Of a DNA stretch of 64,000 nt, positions 10,202 to 45,035 are shown piece by piece (the first letter of the stretch is position 1; every line of letters starts with the position of its first letter). This DNA comes from a phage: the sequence record PZ583739.1. The stretch is one strand, 5' to 3'. The position numbers were made by a program, and so were the translations under genes. The notes below the pieces were generated by a model. The model ran no database searches. It saw only the letters and a program-made list of their open reading frames with translations, and was not told the DNA's origin.

Positions 10202-11734
10202 TTATTTTAACCCGGTCTTTGACCAGTCGCCAAATACATCTTCGAATGTGTCTGCATGGTCTTTATCGAAACGGAACCCTTTGATAATCGGCAGGAACAA
10301 TGCAACCGTATTATCTTTACGAGTCTCGGAAGTCAACCAACCATTACATTCACAGTCAGCAATCATTCCAACCAATTCACCTTTACGGGCTTTAACCATC
10401 AAGGCTTCACGGTCCATTTCATGACGCTCATCAATCGGAATAGAAACCCATTTTTTGGTTTTCTTATCTTTAACTTGAGTTGTGTCTTTAAAACCAGAAC
10501 CACAGTTATTTGTAATCTTACCGCAAGAAGAACGAAGCACAACACCGCCAATCTTATTCGGGTCTTTATCGTGCTCGTAATATCCAATGATTTCCATTGC
10601 AATGTCAATTACTTCTTTGAACTTGTACAAGTTCTTTGAGCGCTTGTTTTCCCAAATCGATGCCATGTTCTTAAGGATAATACCTTCAAGACCTTCATCC
10701 ACATATTTCTTATAGATAACCTTCGCTTCATCGAGATTGTTAACAACATGGTTTTCAATCAGAATCATGCGGTCGAAACCATGCAGCACCACGTTATCTG
10801 CAATCATCTTTTCCAGAACAGCAAAACGCACATCGTATTTCAACGGATTGAGAATCTTAACATCAGAATAGACTTCAATCAGTGGAACATAATCCCAAAC
10901 CTGGAATTTCATACAAGCAGCTTCTGTTGCAGAAATAGTTCCTTTCAATGATTTGTTTGCCAGACCATTTGAAAAGGTTCTTGATTCCGCAGTTTCTTGT
11001 GCAGGGGCAATCTCATCTGTATCGTCAAAAAGGAAGCCCAAACCATCATTCTGGGAAGCTATTTTCTGTTCATGATATACTAACTCGCCGTCAATCAAAA
11101 CGCCCTCAGGATGTCTCTCACGCGCTTCACGGGTAGCTTCAATCAATTCCTTTTTAAGAAGGTCAAGCTTGAGGTATTCGTTGCCAGCTCGGGATAACAA
11201 TCGAACATCATCCAACTCATCACCACGAACTTCTGCGAAACACCGAGCGCCGTCGGCTTTCAATTGCGCAAAGGCCGGGAACTTAATGTTCTTGGCAATA
11301 CCGGCTTCATCATAGGAAGAAGCGAGCATCTGCGGTTGTTCAGGAATTAAACCTTTCCAAACCTTATTTGCAATTGATACGGATGCCCCGCATTCCAGGT
11401 CACGCATCATCACACGGCGAAGAACTTCAACATCTGCTTTTTTACCATCAGCAATATAGCCAGATAATTCCTCGATTGCAGCATTACCTGTTAATTTACG
11501 AGAGGCTAATGTAAATTCGATAAAGTCAAGCATATCATCGATATTCAACATGCCAAAGCTTTGAGACGTTGTCCCAGGTTTTGGCCATTTCTTGATATAG
11601 AACTGGATGCCTTTGGAATATGTCAAACGATACACACGTTTGAGGGTTTCATTGTCAGAATACGATTCCAGAATAGCTTGTTTCTCTTTAGTGGAATCGG
11701 TTGCAGCAATTTCATTTAAAATATCTAAAATCAT
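10202..11734 (-). CDS. 30: ATP-dependent DNA ligase gp30
   Basis: Track start is GTG at 11740; ATG at 11732-11734 with SD AAGAGGTGA gives MILDILNEIA...; ligase KADGAR adenylation motif; about 510 aa. Confidence 0.9.
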   Translation of the reverse strand: MILDILNEIAATDSTKEKQAILESYSDNETLKRVYRLTYSKGIQFYIKKWPKPGTTSQSFGMLNIDDMLDFIEFTLASRKLTGNAAIEELSGYIADGKKADVEVLRRVMMRDLECGASVSIANKVWKGLIPEQPQMLASSYDEAGIAKNIKFPAFAQLKADGARCFAEVRGDELDDVRLLSRAGNEYLKLDLLKKELIEATREARERHPEGVLIDGELVYHEQKIASQNDGLGFLFDDTDEIAPAQETAESRTFSNGLANKSLKGTISATEAACMKFQVWDYVPLIEVYSDVKILNPLKYDVRFAVLEKMIADNVVLHGFDRMILIENHVVNNLDEAKVIYKKYVDEGLEGIILKNMASIWENKRSKNLYKFKEVIDIAMEIIGYYEHDKDPNKIGGVVLRSSCGKITNNCGSGFKDTTQVKDKKTKKWVSIPIDERHEMDREALMVKARKGELVGMIADCECNGWLTSETRKDNTVALFLPIIKGFRFDKDHADTFEDVFGDWSKTGLK

Positions 11735-11743
11735 AATCACCTC

Positions 11744-12022
11744 TTAGTCGTTGGCTCTATTATATGCCACATCTTCCAAAAGCAAATCCAGACGTTTGTG
11801 ATAAGTGAACACAAATTTAGTCGCCCCATCTGGTTTCATTTTAGTCATGAAGTGAACATAGATAAATCCTTGCTCAACACATTCCCGCCAGATTGGGTTA
11901 TCCTTGACCGGATTAATATCAAACGAGTAATTATGATTCACATGACGAATAAACTGGTTAACATGACCGTAATCCATCGTGGTGACTGGACCACGGTCTG
12001 AAATAGTATGAACGACAAACAT
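11744..12022 (-). CDS. hypothetical protein (30.1-like)
   Basis: Track ORF starts at TTG; first ATG at 12020-12022 with SD AGGGGG; ATGA overlap with upstream stop; 92 aa. Confidence 0.45.
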   Translation of the reverse strand: MFVVHTISDRGPVTTMDYGHVNQFIRHVNHNYSFDINPVKDNPIWRECVEQGFIYVHFMTKMKPDGATKFVFTYHKRLDLLLEDVAYNRAND

Positions 12023-12846
12023 CAATTGCCCCCTTGTCCGCCGGTCGGTTGATTGTACCAATATTCAATACCAGTACCCACGCGTGGGCCATATTGATAT
12101 GGATATGCTGGATTATAACCAGGAGTCCACGGTTGTCCAGGCTGCCAGCCCTGCTGCATTTGTTGCTGAAGACGGCGAGTTTCACGAAACAGCTCTTCCA
12201 GTTTACGGAGTTCATCTGGGGTGAATTCTGGTTTGACTGGTTCATCTTTGTGTTTCAGTTTAAGCTGTCCGGCTACATCGTCCCAATTAAAAACTTTGGA
12301 AGCTGTTTTAGGAATAGCATCACGTTCGCCGCGGGCCATCCAATAAACCGGGACTTCAAGAATTTCACTCGCATGGTCGCAATGGTGTGCAAGGTCATCA
12401 ATATAACAAATGACATTATATTTGTCTTTTGCCTTCTGAAATAACTCCTCTTTAGAGGCTGTATGGCCGCACATCATCACTTCTTTAAATGCGCCAGGGA
12501 ACAAAGCGTTCAGGTTGAATTGACGATTCAGACGGGCATCAATGGAATCACCCAGAGCCGTAACAGCCACAAAATCATATTGCTCTTTGAGGTTATTAAT
12601 AACCCTTAACGCATCCGTGTAAGGAGACAAATAGCGAATAAAATCTGAACAGTTATATTTCTCAATCAACTGTGCTCCCAACTCTTCATCACAATTGAAC
12701 AGTTTACCAGGGGTCACAAATTTTTCATCCTGAATCATTTTAAGGATATGTTCCAGGGGTAAATTATATTTTTGAGCGAAATAAGGCAAGCCTGACTGCC
12801 ATGACAAACATACGCCATCAATATCTGTTAAAATAACGGGTTTCAT
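12022..12846 (-). CDS. HAD-superfamily phosphatase-like protein with Q/P/G/Y-rich C-terminal tail (30.2-like)
   Basis: 274 aa; N-terminal ILTDIDGV (HAD motif I DxDG); last about 50 aa are low complexity QQQMQQGWQPGQPWTPGYNPAYPYQYGP...GGQGGN. Confidence 0.55.
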   Translation of the reverse strand: MKPVILTDIDGVCLSWQSGLPYFAQKYNLPLEHILKMIQDEKFVTPGKLFNCDEELGAQLIEKYNCSDFIRYLSPYTDALRVINNLKEQYDFVAVTALGDSIDARLNRQFNLNALFPGAFKEVMMCGHTASKEELFQKAKDKYNVICYIDDLAHHCDHASEILEVPVYWMARGERDAIPKTASKVFNWDDVAGQLKLKHKDEPVKPEFTPDELRKLEELFRETRRLQQQMQQGWQPGQPWTPGYNPAYPYQYGPRVGTGIEYWYNQPTGGQGGN

Positions 12847-13301
12847 AATGCATCTCTCAATTGGTTAAGTATGTCAATAAATTCTTGTTCAGTCAATATT
12901 GTATCATGAACAGTAAGGTGGCTCGCCATCGAATGCTTTAAAACTTTGCCCTTTGTAGCTTGTAATGCGTCGCGGAATCCTTTGTTTTGGAGCGCTGCTT
13001 CAAAATAAGCATTTGTATACAACTCTTTCCATGATGCAGAGTATCTTGAAAAGGGAATTCCAAGCCAGAAAAGCGTCCCACGGTCCGCAGCTCTTGCATA
13101 AGCTCTTCCACTTTGCTGGGCGGCCAATCCGGACATCCCAAATATACGTTTTTGTTGTTCATTATTTCTCACCTTGCACCCTTGTAGGAAGCATTCAAGA
13201 CCCCCAAACTGGATACCCTCCATAACAAAAGGCCATTTAGCAAAGTTACTTAATGCACATGATGGCCACGGAAAATTACTTCTGATTTCTAACTCAGACA
13301 T
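12843..13301 (-). CDS. NADAR/YbiA-like protein (30.3-like)
   Basis: First ATG at 13299-13301 (track start is GTG); FPWPSCALSNFAKWPFVMEGIQFGGLECFLQGCK resembles NADAR family signature by eye; 152 aa. Confidence 0.5.
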   Translation of the reverse strand: MSELEIRSNFPWPSCALSNFAKWPFVMEGIQFGGLECFLQGCKVRNNEQQKRIFGMSGLAAQQSGRAYARAADRGTLFWLGIPFSRYSASWKELYTNAYFEAALQNKGFRDALQATKGKVLKHSMASHLTVHDTILTEQEFIDILNQLRDAL

Positions 13302-13506
13302 CTTTGACACTGATAATATCTACATCAGCCCAATGACCATAACCAGGTAGACGGTCTTTAATAGATAATCCACCGTCAGATTTCAGCATTTTAATTGTTT
13401 TAGTATATGGTTCAATATTTCGGGCCCATGGGCTCACGTCTGTTACACGATAAGTAACTTCAACCATTTCTGTGCCCAAAATTTTCTGAATCAGTTTCTT
13501 AAACAT
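13294..13506 (-). CDS. hypothetical protein
   Basis: 70 aa ORF packed in the minus-strand early gene run with short overlaps to its neighbours. Confidence 0.45.
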   Translation of the reverse strand: MFKKLIQKILGTEMVEVTYRVTDVSPWARNIEPYTKTIKMLKSDGGLSIKDRLPGYGHWADVDIISVKDV

Positions 13507-40876: not shown

Positions 40877-43800
40877 ATGGCTACTTTAAAACAAATACAA
40901 TTTAAAAGAAGTAAGGTTGCCGGCGTTCGCCCGGCGCCAACAGTTCTTGCCGAAGGTGAACTGGCTATCAACTTGAAAGACCGCTTACTTTTTACTAAAG
41001 ATGACACCGGCGCCATCATTGACCTTGGCTTTGCTAAAGGCGGTAATATTGATGGTAACGTTATTCATAACGGTAACTACACCCAAACCGGTGCCTATAC
41101 TATAGCCGGAGCTATTTCACAAACGTCTGGACATTTTACTACTACTGGTAATATAATAGCAACCGGTGATGTCACAGCAAAAGCCCGTTTAATGACAGAT
41201 AATGGTGAAGTTCTTGTACGAGGTACAGGAACCACTCATGTTCGATTCCAGGATTTGGCTGATGCTCGAGAAAGAGGTATAATTTATTCTCAAAACCGTA
41301 CTGGGGATACCAAGCAAATCTTGAACGTTCGTGTTCAGGATTACACTAATTCAACATCTAATATTTTTGCATTCAACGGCGATGGTTTATTTTATGCTCC
41401 GTCTATTTCCAGCGGAACATCGGTGAAATCTCCAGTAATTTATACTAATACCGTTGATACTGGTAATAAATCAGCTCTTGATTATGATATATCTTCATTA
41501 GCAAATAATAATCCTGCAAGTTCAAGCGCAACAGCTATTAACTATCTTAGAATAAGTAGACACGCTGTCGATGGAATTAGGTATCGTGAACTTAATAATG
41601 TAAATGGTATTTCATGGCATTCTATTTCTACAGCCGGAACAGCTAAGTATCTTTGGTCATTTAATGCAGATGGCGATGTCAAAACATCAAATTCTCTTTC
41701 CGTTGGCCTACCTGGGGATAGCTCAGGATACTCAACATTAGGTCCGTCTGCTATCGCACTTGGTGACAATAACACAGGTTTGAAATGGAAACAAGACGGT
41801 CAGTTCCATACAATTAATAATGGAGCTTATACTTTACTTACATCTCCAACTGAAGTTACAAGCCTTAAACAGTTAGTTGCGGGTTATTCAACCAACGGTT
41901 CTGATTTAATTCTTCCTACAACTCAAAACTATCCATTAGTTATTGTTAATACTACTAATGATAAAAACGGCTTCGGCGACGGTCAAACTCTTTTAGGTTA
42001 CCACCAAAGCGGCAAATATCACCATTATTTTCGTGGCAAAGGTGTAACAAACGTTAACACCGATGGTGGGTTGTTGGTTACTCCTGGCAACGTTGAAGTC
42101 CGTGGTGGTTCGGTTAATATTGATGGTCTCAGTAATGCTTCGACAGTGCTTTTTAAAGGAAATACAACAGGAAGTAGTTCAGTTGATAATATAGAGCTCA
42201 AAGTTTGGGGTGACACTTTTAATACAGTAGATGGTTCTCGTAAAAACGTAGTGGAAATATCCGATGCTACTAGCTGGATGCACTATATTCAACGAACTAC
42301 AGCAGGTAAAGTCGAATCCTATTTAAATGGTACCATGAATGTAATTGAAGGATTGTCTGTCAATCAAGATACATCCTTAAAACGCAATCTGTATGTTTCC
42401 AATGAAATTAAAGTTCGCGCGGCGAGTGGTCTTCGTATTTGGAACGATAAGTACGGTGTTATTTTTCGAAATTCAGAAGACCAGCTGCATATTATCCCAA
42501 CCAATGTTAATGCCGGCGAAAGTGGCGGATTAGGTCCATTACGCCCATTAAGTATTATGTTAGACACGGGTCTGGTTAAAATCCCTAACTTAGAAGCAGA
42601 CCAGGTTTCTTTTAAGGGTAGCGGCGTATTAGAATTCCCTAATAGTAGCGGCGCATCTTATGCCAACCAGAACACGACTAAAGCTCCGTTGTATCAAGCA
42701 CTTGATGCTGCGACTCAAGCATTTTATCCTATTACTAAGCAGAAAAATATCGATTCGAATGTAACTGTTACGCAAGGTATGGACCGAGCTACGAGCGAAT
42801 ACCGAATTGTTGCCCAAGGTGATTTGCTTGGCGATGGCGTTACAACCGGATTAAAATACTGGCGCTTTACCAAAGAAGGTAACTTCATGGCCCAGAACCG
42901 CTTATATGCCGGTACAGCTTATATGAATACCGATGGTAATATTGCAGGTTCTATTTGGAAAAAGTATAGCGGTGCTACTAACCTTGACGCAGCGGTGAAT
43001 ACTCGTGTAGGTAAAGGCGGCGATACAATGACAGGTAAATTGGTCATTGATGCTCCAGGCGATCCTTTAGTATTAAAAACAACCGCAGGTAATAGCTCGC
43101 ATATCCGTTCTGATGTAAATGGTACCGGCAACTGGTATGTTGGTAAAGGTGGCGATGATAACGGAATAGCTCTTTACAGTTATGCTACCAACTCGGGTAT
43201 GTACATCACTAATGATGGGGCTTTCAACGTAGAACTTTCTGGTGCTGGCTTAGCAATGCAGATGAATTATTATCGCATGTATGTTAATGGCCGAGCATGG
43301 GTTAATACACAAGGTCATGGTTACGGAAACCAATGGCAAACAGAAGCTCCTTATTTCGTCGACTTTGGTGAATCTGTTCCTAAAGATAGCTATATGCCAA
43401 TTATCAAAGGAAAAAGCACTCTAATTACCGACGGATATTCTACTAAAGCAGACTTTGGTATTATTCGATTAGGTGGAGCTGCTACTTGGGGTTCTGCTGT
43501 TATTCGTGTGGGTTCTGCCGAAAGCGGCGATGCAAGCCATCCTAATGCAATATTTGTATTTCAGGCCAATGGTGATTTTGTTGCACCTGCCGGTTTACGA
43601 GCCAGAGCTAACCTAGGCGTGGGCACAATCCCGGTATGGGGCGGCGCATCCATTGCCATTGGGGACGATGACACCGGCTTAGTCCATGGTGGTGACGGTC
43701 GAATTAATATGTATGCTAACTCGCAACATATTGCAAGCTGGGGAGCCGGTTATCAGATTCATGAAGGTCTTTGGGATACCCATGGGGCTTTGTGGACTGA

Positions 43801-44221
43801 AACAGGAAAAGCTATTATTTCTTATGGGCATTTAGTCCAACAAAGTGATGCCTATTCTACATATGTCCGTGATGTGTATGTCCGTTCTGATATTCGTGTT
43901 AAAAAAGACCTTGTTAAATTTGAAAATGCTTCTCGGAAGCTTTCTAAAATTAACGGCTACACATATATGCAGAAACGTGGAACTGACGAAGAAGGTAATC
44001 AGAAATGGGAACCTAATGCTGGTTTAATTGCTCAAGAAGTTCAAGCTATTTTACCTGAATTGGTTGAAGGCGACCCTGATGGTGAAGCTTTACTTCGTTT
44101 GAACTATAACGGTGTAATTGGTTTAAATACAGCTGCAATCAATGAGCACACTGCAGAAATAGCAGAATTGAAATCAGAGATTGAAGAACTTAAAGCTTTA
44201 GTTAAATCATTGTTAAAATAA
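40877..44221 (+). CDS. 37: long tail fibre distal subunit gp37
   Basis: 1114 aa; Gly/Asn/Thr-rich fibre repeats; C-terminal SDIRVKKDL block suggests an autoproteolytic chaperone domain. Confidence 0.85.
43886..44218 (+). other. putative C-terminal intramolecular chaperone (autoproteolytic, S74-like) domain of gp37
   Basis: Last 111 aa begin with SDIRVKKDL (Ser at 43886) and end in a coiled-coil-like [22 protein letters not shown]; resembles the self-cleaving chaperone domains of endosialidases and T5 pb1. Confidence 0.5.
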
Positions 44222-44252: not shown

Positions 44253-45035
44253 ATGGCAGTAGTAGGACCGTGGGTAGGGTGGTCTGCGAGGGTACAAACT
44301 GGGGACCCTTGGATGGGCGGCGCTGCCCAACGATTGAGAATGGGTATTCCGTTTTGGATGAGTAATATGGTAGGTCGGTCTGTTGAAATAATTCACACAC
44401 TTGGAGCCGACCATAACTTTAACGGGCAATGGTTTAGAGACCGTTGTTTTGAAGCCGGTGCTGCCCCTATTGTGTTTAATATCACAGGTGATTTAGTATC
44501 TTATACTAAAGATGTTCCGTTGTTCTTTATGTATGGCGATACCCCTAATGAATACGTTACTTTGAATATTCACGGCGGGGTCCATATGTGGGGCCGTGGT
44601 GGTAACGGTGGGACCCGTGTTTGGGTAGCGGGTACAAATGGTGGTGATGTAATTCAAAACGACATTGGTGGCAGACTCCGTATCTGGAACTATGGCGTTA
44701 TAGCTTCAGGGGGCGGCGGCGGTGCCGGATGTGCTTCAAATAACTCTTGGCTTGTGGCGGGTACAGCTGGTGGCGGTGGCGGTAGACCATATGGATTAGG
44801 TGGTACTAATGGCGCCGTAAACCCAGGCGGCAACGCTAGTTATACCGGACCAGGTGGCGGTGGTAGCTTTGGTGGACAGTGGGGTGGTGGTAATGGCGGC
44901 GACGCGGGTGGGGCTGGTGGCGGCGCTTACGGACGAAGCGTTACATACGGCTCACAAGGCGGAGCTGGACGAGCTGTATTCGGAAGTTCTCCTTCATGGG
45001 GCGCTACAGGCACTATCTACGGCTCCTGGCTATAG
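44253..45035 (+). CDS. 38: tail fibre adhesin gp38 (T2/S16-type, polyglycine-rich receptor-binding protein)
   Basis: Track start 44241 is TTG; ATG at 44253 with SD GGAGG gives MAVVGPWVG...; Gly-rich motifs ([24 protein letters not shown]) between variable segments; ends GSWL. Confidence 0.85.

What the first reader, a model, noticed from the sequence alone, without database searches (positions are those of the whole stretch)
12022..12846. HAD-like phosphatase with a Q/P/G/Y/W-rich low-complexity C-terminal tail
The N-terminus carries the HAD motif I (ILTDIDGV) and a globular region of about 220 aa. The last about 50 residues (QQQMQQGWQPGQPWTPGYNPAYPYQYGPRVGTGIEYWYNQPTGGQGGN) are strongly biased, resembling prion-like or condensate-forming tails that are unusual on phage metabolic enzymes. 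This could be a localisation or interaction module; a sequencing artefact cannot be excluded from the sequence alone.
Basis: seen in the sequence. Interest (0 to 1): 0.5.

Follow-up and report, generated by a model that had tools for sequence, protein, structure and literature searches.

The report
T4 gp30.2 phosphatase with disordered tail
This is the VR7-type phage copy of the uncharacterised T4 gene 30.2, a HAD-type phosphatase whose odd Q/P/G/Y/W-rich tail is real, disordered and under purifying selection, and looks more like a flexible tether ending in a small docking motif than a prion-like domain.

Summary
The ORF at 12022..12846 (minus strand, 274 aa) is the orthologue of T4 gene 30.2, in conserved order 30.3(AdfN)-30.2-30.1-30(ligase). 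The window is a Gaprivervirus (VR7/TH54-like). Residues 1-200 form a confident HAD Rossmannoid fold with a C1 cap, and all four catalytic motifs are invariant or at least 90% conserved in 97 homologues. No Pfam or NCBIfam model detects the protein. Residues 210-232 form a helix and 233-274 are predicted disordered.

The tail is not an artefact. The same tail occurs in independent assemblies. Close relatives differ only by in-frame indels across the tail (only the last few codons before the stop shift), and tail dN/dS is 0.035 in VR7-like phages and 0.23 in T4-like phages.

The tail is a derived addition. Most of about 1200 family representatives are 190-215 aa and carry the core only. What is conserved across tails is Pro/Trp enrichment and positional boxes (W-TPG-Y/F-NP and G-x-G-IEY-[LW]-x-N-[QR]-PT). 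Q-richness is specific to the VR7 lineage.

The prion or condensate reading is therefore poorly supported. A disordered linker plus a short linear docking motif fits better. The partner and the substrate are unknown. This is a modestly interesting new variant of a known kind.

The parts
12022..12846 (-). Complete CDS of the gene 30.2 orthologue (274 aa plus TGA stop)
   Evidence: ORF listing. 99.3% identical to phage TH54, 97.4% to VR7 gp30.2 and 67% to T4 gp30.2 over residues 1-270. Matches phrog_420 at E=6.5e-79.
12247..12846 (-). HAD Rossmannoid core with a four-helix C1 cap (residues 1-200)
12811..12825 (-). HAD motif I, DIDGV (D8 nucleophile, D10 general acid/base)
   Evidence: D8 and D10 are invariant in 97 homologues. 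They follow strand 4-7 in the model.
12559..12561 (-). HAD motif II, Thr96
   Evidence: At least 90% conserved in the 97-sequence alignment and invariant in A4/A5. It lies at the end of strand 91-96.
12451..12453 (-). HAD motif III, Lys132
   Evidence: Invariant in 97 homologues.
12394..12399 (-). HAD motif IV, Asp150-Asp151 (Mg2+ ligands)
   Evidence: Invariant in 97 homologues. Lies at the end of strand 145-150.
12151..12219 (-). Amphipathic charged helix, residues 210-232 (PDELRKLEELFRETRRLQQQMQQ), forming the first part of the lineage-specific C-terminal extension
   Evidence: Predicted as a helix with pLDDT 90-94 using the deep alignment and 76-79 using the shallow one. A helix-prone charged segment sits at the same place in T4 and the Klebsiella-phage homologues, but its sequence is not conserved. 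dN/dS is 0.11-0.32.
12025..12150 (-). Disordered G/Q/P/Y/W-rich tail, residues 233-274
   Evidence: pLDDT is 70 falling to 43 in two independent AlphaFold2 runs. Composition. dN/dS is 0.035 within VR7-like phages.
12109..12129 (-). Conserved box 1, W240-T-P-G-Y-N-P246 (T4 has W-R-T-P-G-F-N-P)
   Evidence: W240 is at least 90% conserved in 24 motif-bearing homologues. The W(R)T(P/T)G(P) box recurs in three different T4-like tail types and in P0030.
12043..12078 (-). Conserved near-C-terminal box, G257-T-G-I-E-Y-W-Y-N-Q-P-T268
   Evidence: E261 is invariant, and G259, Y262, P267 and T268 are at least 90% conserved, in lineages with about 50% core identity. This is the only match to the motif in the six-frame translation of the window. 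37 of 51 tail-bearing representatives carry this box or a related one in the last 26 residues, against 0.4% of shuffled tails.
11744..12022 (-). Gene 30.1 (DUF3045). Its ATG shares one base with the 30.2 stop (TGATG).
   Evidence: Pfam PF11243 at E=4e-18. The sequence was read directly. A 30.1-like gene directly follows every disordered-tail 30.2 examined; the stop/start overlap itself was checked only in the window, T4 and L020.
12843..13310 (-). Gene 30.3 (AdfN, a NADAR anti-DarT1 factor). Its stop overlaps the 30.2 start (ATGA).
   Evidence: Pfam Phage_30_3 at E=8e-63. Function taken from PMC11825919.

Best explanation
The ORF is the Gaprivervirus (VR7/TH54-like) orthologue of bacteriophage T4 gene 30.2.

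Core: residues 1-200 are a divergent, almost phage-restricted HAD-superfamily enzyme with a C1 cap. It has a complete DxD/T/K/DD catalytic set. It is therefore most likely a Mg2+-dependent phosphomonoesterase acting on a small, probably nucleotide-like, substrate.

Extension: residues 201-274 are a lineage-specific C-terminal extension acquired within the T4-like phages. They consist of a short linker, an amphipathic helix (210-232), and a roughly 42-residue intrinsically disordered, Pro/Trp/Tyr/Gly-rich segment. That segment carries two conserved boxes, WTPGYNP and GTGIEYWYNQPT, just before the C-terminus.

Proposed mechanism: the extension works as a flexible tether ending in a short linear docking motif. 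The motif would bind a partner, either a phage or host protein or the enzyme itself in trans, and so localise or regulate the phosphatase. It does not act as a prion-like or phase-separating domain.

Shown here: identity, fold, catalytic residues, disorder prediction, purifying selection, derived origin, and motif conservation.

Inferred only: phosphatase activity, the substrate class, and the docking function. The partner is unknown.
For: Identity and synteny:
- tblastn finds 1439 phage records, including T4 gp30.2 and VR7 gp30.2.
- The neighbours are 30.3, 30.1 and ligase.

Fold:
- AlphaFold2 mean pLDDT is 87.8 and the core is above 93.
- The lowest-rmsd Foldseek hits are 5'(3')-deoxyribonucleotidases.

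Catalytic set:
- D8, D10, K132, D150 and D151 are invariant and T96 is at least 90% conserved in 97 homologues.

The tail is real and selected:
- The same tail is seen in independent assemblies.
- Across the tail only in-frame indels and NPY/HPY-unit slippage occur among 17 close relatives. The last few codons before the stop differ by small frame-shifting indels.
- Nei-Gojobori dN/dS for the tail is 0.035 in the VR7 group, 0.23 in the T4 group and 0.12 in a third group, against 0.025-0.054 for the core.

The tail is derived:
- 1219 family representatives score E<=1e-3, and most are 190-215 aa.
- The distant environmental homologues extracted are all core-only, 190-204 aa.

Disorder:
- pLDDT is below 50 for most of the tail in two runs with different alignments.

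Motifs rather than composition:
- E261 is invariant and W240, P249, G259, Y262, P267 and T268 are at least 90% conserved, while the linker varies in length and sequence.
- Tails are enriched in P (3.0x), W (3.6x), T (2.2x) and G (1.7x), but Q only 1.2x.
- 37 of 51 tails carry an IEY[LW], LRA[YST][YF] or xLL[NG] box in the last 26 residues, against 0.4% of shuffles.
- Other lineages carry quite different C-terminal add-ons at the same position, so this end is a site of module accretion. Examples are the roughly 110-aa extension of phiR1-RT and a 430-aa form that again has LRATF close to its C-terminus.
Against: - No partner was identified.
- A tail-only profile search of 5.8 billion proteins returned nothing at all, so the module was not seen on any other protein. 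That search was very insensitive.
- AlphaFold2 does not dock the motif anywhere, which also means no structural support for any binding mode.
- The IEY box is degenerate in some close T4 relatives (GDAGYFNRLT in L008, L009 and L094). 14 of 51 tails have none of the three boxes.
- Phosphatase activity is untested. No Pfam or NCBIfam HAD model reaches even E=0.1 on this protein.
- T4 30.2 knock-down gave no detectable fitness effect under laboratory conditions: 'Not fit', FC -0.34, P 0.82 (PMC11879866 supplement).
Confidence: 0.55

Rival explanations
1. Prion-like or condensate-forming low-complexity domain. Under this view, the G/Q/Y/P-rich tail drives self-association or phase separation of the enzyme through aromatic 'sticker' residues.
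For: The composition resembles FUS-type SYGQ low-complexity regions. There are 9 aromatic residues in 46, G+Q is 39%, and there are almost no charges. The segment is predicted disordered. Aromatic enrichment, especially of Trp, is shared by tails in other lineages.
Against: - The segment is only 42-48 residues long.
- It is 15% Pro and only 24% Q+N.
- Q-richness is confined to the VR7 lineage. T4 and the Klebsiella-phage tails are not Q-rich.
- The constraint is positional, with an invariant E261 and conserved boxes.
- dN/dS of 0.035 is stronger than a composition-only constraint would need.
Confidence: 0.1
2. Intramolecular or inter-subunit regulatory element. The helix and the C-terminal box fold back on the HAD cap or active site, or swap between subunits of a dimer. 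They would then gate substrate access or stabilise an oligomer rather than recruit a foreign partner.
For: Helix 210-232 is predicted with high confidence directly after the core. The structurally nearest enzymes, cdN/mdN-type nucleotidases, are dimers according to established knowledge. Core-only homologues exist, so the extension is an accessory regulator rather than part of catalysis.
Against: Neither AlphaFold2 run places residues 233-274 against the core, and pLDDT stays below 50. No coevolution analysis between tail and core was possible.
Confidence: 0.2
3. The tail has no function as a protein. The 3' end of 30.2 is kept open only to deliver ribosomes to the overlapping 30.1 start (TGATG), or because it holds a DNA or RNA signal such as the promoter-like site at 12139..12112.
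For: The 30.2 stop overlaps the 30.1 start. A match of 11 out of 12 to TGGACA-16-TATAAT lies inside the tail-coding DNA. Tails diverge quickly between lineages.
Against: dN/dS of 0.035-0.23 in the 30.2 frame shows selection on the amino-acid sequence. Protein motifs are conserved across lineages whose DNA is saturated with synonymous change (pS 0.85 between the window and T4). The -35 element is not conserved in VR7. Promoter-like sites are no more frequent here than in shuffled sequence.
Confidence: 0.05
4. Sequencing or assembly artefact. An indel shifts the frame, and the biased peptide is an out-of-frame translation.
For: None found. The extreme C-terminus (the last 2-6 residues after QPT) does vary by small indels between VR7-like genomes.
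Against: The same 274-aa protein occurs in a 99-member cluster, and in TH54, IMG/VR genomes and an ENA contig. T4 itself has the homologous tail. All 17 close relatives keep the frame. dN/dS is well below 1.
Confidence: 0.01

Closest known systems
Bacteriophage T4 gp30.2 (AAD42442.1; phrog_420), annotated 'conserved hypothetical protein'
   Same: Orthologue. It is 67% identical over residues 1-270 and sits in the same position between 30.3 and 30.1, with overlapping start and stop codons. It has the same architecture: HAD core, helix, then an aromatic/Pro-rich tail with WRTPGFNP and GGIEYLYNRPT boxes.
   Different: The T4 tail is N/Y/H/P-rich rather than Q/G-rich. It has extra NPY/HPY units and a longer C-terminal end (GDNIFQGAF). 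The helix sequences are unrelated (pN 0.68).
Cytosolic and mitochondrial 5'(3')-deoxyribonucleotidases (cdN/mdN, Pfam NT5C PF06941; PDB 2jao, 2i7d, 1q92) and the deoxyribonucleotidase-like protein 3bwv
Proteins built as 'disordered linker plus conserved C-terminal peptide', such as E. coli SSB (Gly/Gln/Pro-rich linker plus acidic tip) or FtsZ (variable linker plus conserved C-terminal peptide). This comparison rests on my own knowledge and was not tested here.
   Same: The architecture and evolutionary behaviour match. There is a fast-evolving, indel-prone, low-complexity linker, followed by a short conserved box near the C-terminus. The VR7-type linker (QQGWQPGQPW) even resembles the SSB linker in composition.
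   Different: There is no sequence homology. The terminal box here is aromatic and polar (GIEYWYNQPT), not acidic. No partner is known.

Membership tests
HAD (haloacid dehalogenase-like) superfamily phosphatases | Motif I, hhhDxDx(T/V), with a nucleophile Asp and an Asp at +2 that marks phosphatases rather than dehalogenases | tested here: met
   The sequence VILTDIDGV is present. D8 and D10 are invariant in 97 homologues.
HAD (haloacid dehalogenase-like) superfamily phosphatases | Motif II (Ser/Thr at the end of strand 2), motif III (Lys) and motif IV (acidic DD) | tested here: met
   T96 is at least 90% conserved, and K132, D150 and D151 are invariant. They lie at the ends of strands 91-96 and 145-150 in the model.
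HAD (haloacid dehalogenase-like) superfamily phosphatases | Rossmannoid alpha/beta core with a cap inserted after motif I (C1 type) | tested here: met
HAD (haloacid dehalogenase-like) superfamily phosphatases | Match to a curated HAD sequence model (Pfam Hydrolase/HAD_2, or NCBIfam) | tested here: not met
   There are no Pfam or NCBIfam hits even at E 0.1-1. Distant family members reach only sub-threshold Hydrolase, HAD_2 and NT5C scores. The family lies outside current models, so membership rests on fold and motifs.
HAD (haloacid dehalogenase-like) superfamily phosphatases | Mg2+-dependent phosphoryl transfer through an aspartyl-phosphate intermediate | not testable with these tools
   This needs an enzyme assay.
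5'(3')-deoxyribonucleotidase / NT5C family (PF06941) | Significant sequence match to the family model or to its members | tested here: not met
   There is no PF06941 hit. The best PDB sequence match is 2jao at E=0.32 for the single sequence and 0.24 for the profile.
5'(3')-deoxyribonucleotidase / NT5C family (PF06941) | A closer structural match than to other HAD subfamilies | tested here: inconclusive
5'(3')-deoxyribonucleotidase / NT5C family (PF06941) | dNMP substrate specificity and its cap residues | not tested
   No residue-level superposition or assay was possible.
T4 gp30.2 family (phrog_420) | Sequence match and conserved position between 30.3 and 30.1/30 | tested here: met
   phrog_420 at E=6.5e-79. 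67% identity to T4 gp30.2. Synteny confirmed.
Prion-like (Q/N-rich) domains | A long (about 60 aa or more) Q/N-rich region that is poor in Pro and charged residues. This criterion comes from my knowledge of PLAAC/PAPA-type definitions. | tested here: not met
   The biased stretch is 42-48 aa, with Q+N 24% and Pro 15%. Q enrichment is not conserved in homologous tails.
Intrinsically disordered tail carrying a short linear motif | Predicted disorder, with a short conserved box embedded in a linker of variable length and sequence | tested here: met
   pLDDT is below 50 in two runs. The boxes are conserved while the linkers vary.
Intrinsically disordered tail carrying a short linear motif | The motif binds a defined partner | not testable with these tools
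   Only monomer structure prediction was available. The tail-only profile search returned nothing.

The most novel reading that the evidence does not exclude
The tail may be a dedicated docking peptide that couples the 30.2 phosphatase to the product of the next gene, gp30.1 (DUF3045). The two would form a two-protein module beside the anti-DarT NADAR enzyme AdfN (30.3). Such a module could dispose of a phosphorylated product of ADP-ribose or nucleotide turnover during infection.

Points in favour:
- The 30.2 stop and the 30.1 start overlap.
- A 30.1-like gene follows every disordered-tail 30.2 examined (14 of 14 loci). It is missing from 8 of 11 tail-less loci.
- One metagenomic contig fuses a tail-less core directly to gp30.1.

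Caveats: the co-occurrence is confounded by phylogeny. The fusion differs from a normal relative by a single base in a T-run.
Probability: 0.12. Interest if true: 0.55.

Novelty: new variant of a known kind. Interest (0 to 1): 0.33.

Why it matters
Gene 30.2 has been in the T4 genome sequence for decades and is still annotated as 'conserved hypothetical'. I found no paper that discusses it.

This work gives it a testable biochemical identity. It appears to be a phage-restricted HAD phosphatase that current Pfam and NCBIfam models miss.

It also shows that about half of the closer homologues sampled (51 of 97, mostly phages of enterobacteria and their relatives) carry a selected, disordered C-terminal tether with conserved boxes. 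That offers a concrete handle, by tail deletion or E261/Y262 mutants, for finding what the enzyme associates with.

The gene sits next to AdfN, a recently discovered counter-defence gene. The practical significance is moderate: T4 30.2 is dispensable in laboratory knock-down screens, and nothing here points to a new kind of mechanism.

Tried and rejected
- Pfam and NCBIfam scans of the protein gave no hits.
- Sequence search of the PDB, with the single sequence and with a profile, gave only a marginal cdN hit.
- A profile of 15 tails (A2) searched against 5.8 billion proteins at E<=10 returned nothing. Whether the tail module occurs on other proteins is therefore unresolved. The method is insensitive for short, biased profiles.
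- A motif scan of the window's six-frame translation found no second copy of the IEY..QPT, LRAYY or YxLLN boxes.
- A second AlphaFold2 run, using only motif-bearing homologues, was meant to coax docking of the tail. The model was worse and the tail was still disordered.
- Tandem Repeats Finder found no DNA repeat in the tail-coding region.
- The scan of bacterial genomes gave one hit, a 178-kb phage-like contig, so no cellular source of the family was found.
- The metagenome scan gave only 9 loci.
- Pfam scans of the neighbours of two distant environmental homologues were uninformative.
- Literature searches for gp30.2, 30.2 and '32.4 kDa protein' found no functional study.
- The afdb50 fold library was unavailable.
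- A membrane-interface reading was considered and dropped. My hand calculation with recalled Wimley-White values gave roughly zero net interfacial free energy, so it is not reported as evidence.
- A similarity between the tail and the RNA polymerase II CTD, which is a substrate of FCP/SCP-type HAD phosphatases, was considered only as a curiosity and could not be tested.
Full report
**1. Observation**

The ORF listing shows an ATG-initiated ORF of 274 codons on the minus strand at 12022..12846. The finding gave these coordinates without a strand.

Residues 229-274 are 22% G, 17% Q, 15% P, 13% Y and 6.5% W. They contain a single R and a single E, and no K, D, L, F, S, H or C. Among 15,635 windows of 46 residues in the 92 long ORFs of this 64-kb window, this is the most G/Q/P/Y/W-rich. 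The fraction is 0.76 against a background of 0.19, and the binomial P is 1.6e-15 per window. The coding DNA is correspondingly GC-rich, 0.52 against about 0.38, and has no tandem DNA repeat.

**2. What the gene is**

The flanking ORFs identify the locus:
- ATP-dependent DNA ligase (10202..11740)
- DUF3045 (11744..12022)
- Phage_30_3 (12843..13310)

tblastn against GenBank phages finds 1439 records. Identity is 99.3% to Escherichia phage TH54, 97.4% to vB_EcoM_VR7 gp30.2, and 67% over residues 1-270 to T4 gp30.2. The T4 and VR7 records show the same order, 30.3-30.2-30.1-30-alt. So the window is a Gaprivervirus and the ORF is the orthologue of T4 gene 30.2.

The reading frames are tightly packed. 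The 30.3 stop overlaps the 30.2 start (ATGA), and the 30.2 stop overlaps the 30.1 start (TGATG).

PHROGs files the protein in phrog_420, 'unknown function'. I found no paper dealing with gp30.2. Its upstream neighbour 30.3 was recently shown to be AdfN, a NADAR enzyme that counters DarTG1 (PMC11825919). In a T4 CRISPRi-ART screen, 30.2 was annotated 'unknown function' and scored 'Not fit' (FC -0.34, P 0.82). Gene 30.1 scored 'Semi-fit' (PMC11879866 supplement).

**3. The core**

Neither Pfam nor NCBIfam detects anything in the protein. AlphaFold2 with a 97-sequence alignment nevertheless gives a confident model: mean pLDDT 87.8, with residues 1-200 at 93-98.

The four HAD motifs are present. 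D8 and D10 (motif I), K132 (motif III) and D150-D151 (motif IV) are invariant, and T96 (motif II) is at least 90% conserved, in 97 homologues. The Asp at +2 marks phosphatases rather than dehalogenases, according to established HAD knowledge.

Sequence links to the NT5C family are only marginal (E 0.24-0.32). Distant family members reach only sub-threshold Hydrolase, HAD_2 and NT5C scores.

An exhaustive profile search finds 1219 representatives at E<=1e-3. A scan of 185,579 bacterial and archaeal genomes finds one hit, on a 178-kb phage-like contig.

My conclusion is that this is a divergent, essentially phage-restricted HAD phosphatase family. A nucleotidase-like activity is the best guess, but it is not established.

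**4. The tail is real and selected**

The same 274-aa protein, with the same tail, appears in several independent sources:
- a 99-member 90%-identity cluster (P0001)
- phage TH54
- IMG/VR genomes
- an ENA metagenome contig (L091)

Five VR7-like sequences differ in the tail by in-frame changes: YGPRVGTG, YGQRVGTG or YGVGTG. They also differ in the last 2-6 residues, where small indels just before the stop shift the frame.

Twelve T4-like sequences differ by in-frame insertions of NPY/HPY-type units. One has NPYYTHPY duplicated. None is frameshifted across the tail.

Nei-Gojobori dN/dS, pooled over pairs:

| Group | Core | Helix | Tail |
|---|---|---|---|
| VR7-like | 0.028 | 0.11 | 0.035 |
| T4-like | 0.025 | 0.32 | 0.23 |
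| Third T4-like tail type | 0.054 | n/a (no nonsynonymous change) | 0.12 |

The tail is therefore translated in this frame and is under purifying selection at the protein level. This rules out an artefact, and also rules out a mere spacer for translational coupling to 30.1. The pooled pairs are not independent, so the numbers are indicative only.

**5. The tail is a derived, modular addition**

Of the 97 closest cluster representatives, 51 have an extension of at least 30 residues beyond residue 200, not counting three with atypical extensions (P0063, P0064, P0093). The rest end at about 200-220 aa. The distant environmental homologues (25-34% identity) whose ORFs I extracted are all 190-204 aa, and so are most of the 150 best representatives.

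Tail-bearing forms occur in phages of Escherichia, Klebsiella, Enterobacter, Citrobacter and Erwinia. Phages of Acinetobacter, Aeromonas, Vibrio, Shewanella, Pseudomonas and Serratia, among others, have the core only.

Other lineages carry different add-ons at the same point:
- a roughly 110-aa extension of ordinary composition in Yersinia phage phiR1-RT
- a Cys-rich end (P0093)
- a 430-aa form (P0119)

**6. What is conserved in the tail**

AlphaFold2 predicts a helix at 210-232 (pLDDT 90-94). From residue 233 the confidence falls from 70 to 43. A second run with only motif-bearing homologues again leaves the tail below 50.

Alignment of 24 homologues whose cores are 50-98% identical shows E261 invariant. 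W240, P249, G259, Y262, P267 and T268 are at least 90% conserved. These define two boxes: W-(R)-T-P-G-(Y/F)-N-P and G-x-G-I-E-Y-[LW]-x-N-[QR]-P-T. The spacer between the boxes varies in length.

Other lineages have an LRA[YST][YF] or xLL[NG] box at the equivalent near-terminal position. P0034 (NLEWYYNQPK) bridges the IEY and LRAYY types. In all, 37 of 51 tails carry one of the three boxes in the last 26 residues, against 0.4% of shuffled tails.

Compositionally, tails are enriched over the core in P (3.0x), W (3.6x), T (2.2x) and G (1.7x). Q is enriched only 1.2x. The Pro/Trp-rich character and the boxes are what evolution keeps.

**7. Mechanism**

The anatomy matches a familiar design, known for example from E. 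coli SSB and FtsZ (my own knowledge, not tested here). The features are:
- a folded enzyme
- a helix
- an indel-prone disordered linker
- a short conserved box a few residues from the C-terminus

In that design, a flexible tether presents a short linear motif to a partner. I therefore favour a docking or localisation function for the tail (confidence about 0.5), attached to a Mg2+-dependent phosphatase (confidence about 0.85 for the chemistry, low for the substrate). The overall confidence in the combined statement is 0.55.

The partner is unknown. A fold-back or dimer-swap role is a live rival (0.2). The prion or condensate reading is weak (0.1), for these reasons:
- the segment is short (42-48 aa)
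- it is 15% Pro
- Q-richness is not conserved
- the constraint is positional

**8. A lead on the partner**

A 30.1-like gene directly follows every disordered-tail 30.2 locus I examined (14 of 14). This includes L020, where the gene is a divergent 78-aa ORF that overlaps the 30.2 stop. The same gene is absent from 8 of 11 tail-less loci.

One Logan contig encodes a tail-less core fused in frame to gp30.1 (P0021). It differs from its normal relative L019 by a single base in a T-run, so it may be an error. The co-occurrence is confounded by phylogeny. I rate 'the tail docks gp30.1' at about 0.12.

**9. Verdict**

This is a new variant of a known kind: an HAD phosphatase with a lineage-specific tail that is disordered and carries conserved motifs, in a long-sequenced but unstudied T4 gene. 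Interest is moderate to low. The protein is dispensable in laboratory screens and no new principle is implied. The conserved boxes do give a simple experimental handle.

Noticed in passing
window 12112..12139 (minus strand): A strong sigma-70-like match (TGGACA, 16 nt, TATAAT; 11 of 12) lies inside the tail-coding DNA, about 90 nt upstream of the 30.1 start. The TATAAT comes from the Tyr-Asn codons of the conserved YNP box and is also present in VR7 and T4. The -35 element is not conserved in VR7 (AGGTCA). Overall, promoter-like sites in the region are no more frequent than in shuffles.
   Followed up: partly
window 12843..13310 (minus strand): The upstream gene is 30.3, also called AdfN. It is the NADAR enzyme recently shown to neutralise the DarTG1 defence system (PMC11825919). 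Its stop overlaps the 30.2 start (ATGA), so 30.3, 30.2 and 30.1 form a tightly coupled unit.
   Followed up: partly
window 44253..45035 (plus strand): This 260-aa ORF has an extreme Gly-rich low-complexity stretch ([46 protein letters not shown]...). It is the lowest-entropy 46-aa window of all 92 long ORFs. It lies directly after a 1114-aa ORF at 40877..44221.
   Followed up: no
L101 234..1142 (Logan contig SRR21148734_3542831), compared with L019 4530..4680: A 302-aa protein (P0021) fuses a tail-less 30.2 core in frame to gp30.1 (DUF3045). It differs from the unfused relative L019 by one base in a T-run, so it may be either a natural fusion or an assembly error.
   Followed up: partly
L001-L038 (loci of T4-like phages): A 30.1-like gene directly follows all 14 disordered-tail 30.2 genes examined; the stop/start overlap was checked only in the window, T4 and L020. 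It is absent from 8 of 11 tail-less loci (Acinetobacter-, Aeromonas- and Serratia-type phages). No phylogenetic correction was applied.
   Followed up: partly
L094 889..1752, and L008/L009 from 3001: Some T4-like relatives have expanded the aromatic-proline part of the tail by in-frame duplication (NPYYTHPYNPYYTHPY). In the same relatives the IEYLYNRPT box has degenerated to DAGYFNR(L/F)T. This shows repeat slippage and turnover of the motif within one genus.
   Followed up: partly
P0063/P0064 (L026, L036; Yersinia phage phiR1-RT type), P0119, P0170: Other family members carry unrelated add-ons. These include a roughly 110-aa C-terminal extension of ordinary composition, a 430-aa form with a long helical extension that has an LRATF box close to its C-terminus, and a 591-aa protein with a 380-aa N-terminal extension.
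   Followed up: no
L100 (Flagellimonas marina NZ_JBHSCL010000010.1, a 178-kb contig): This is the only hit for the family in 185,579 bacterial and archaeal genomes. It lies on a contig the size of a T4-like phage genome, within a Flagellimonas assembly. It is probably a co-assembled phage rather than a cellular gene.
   Followed up: no
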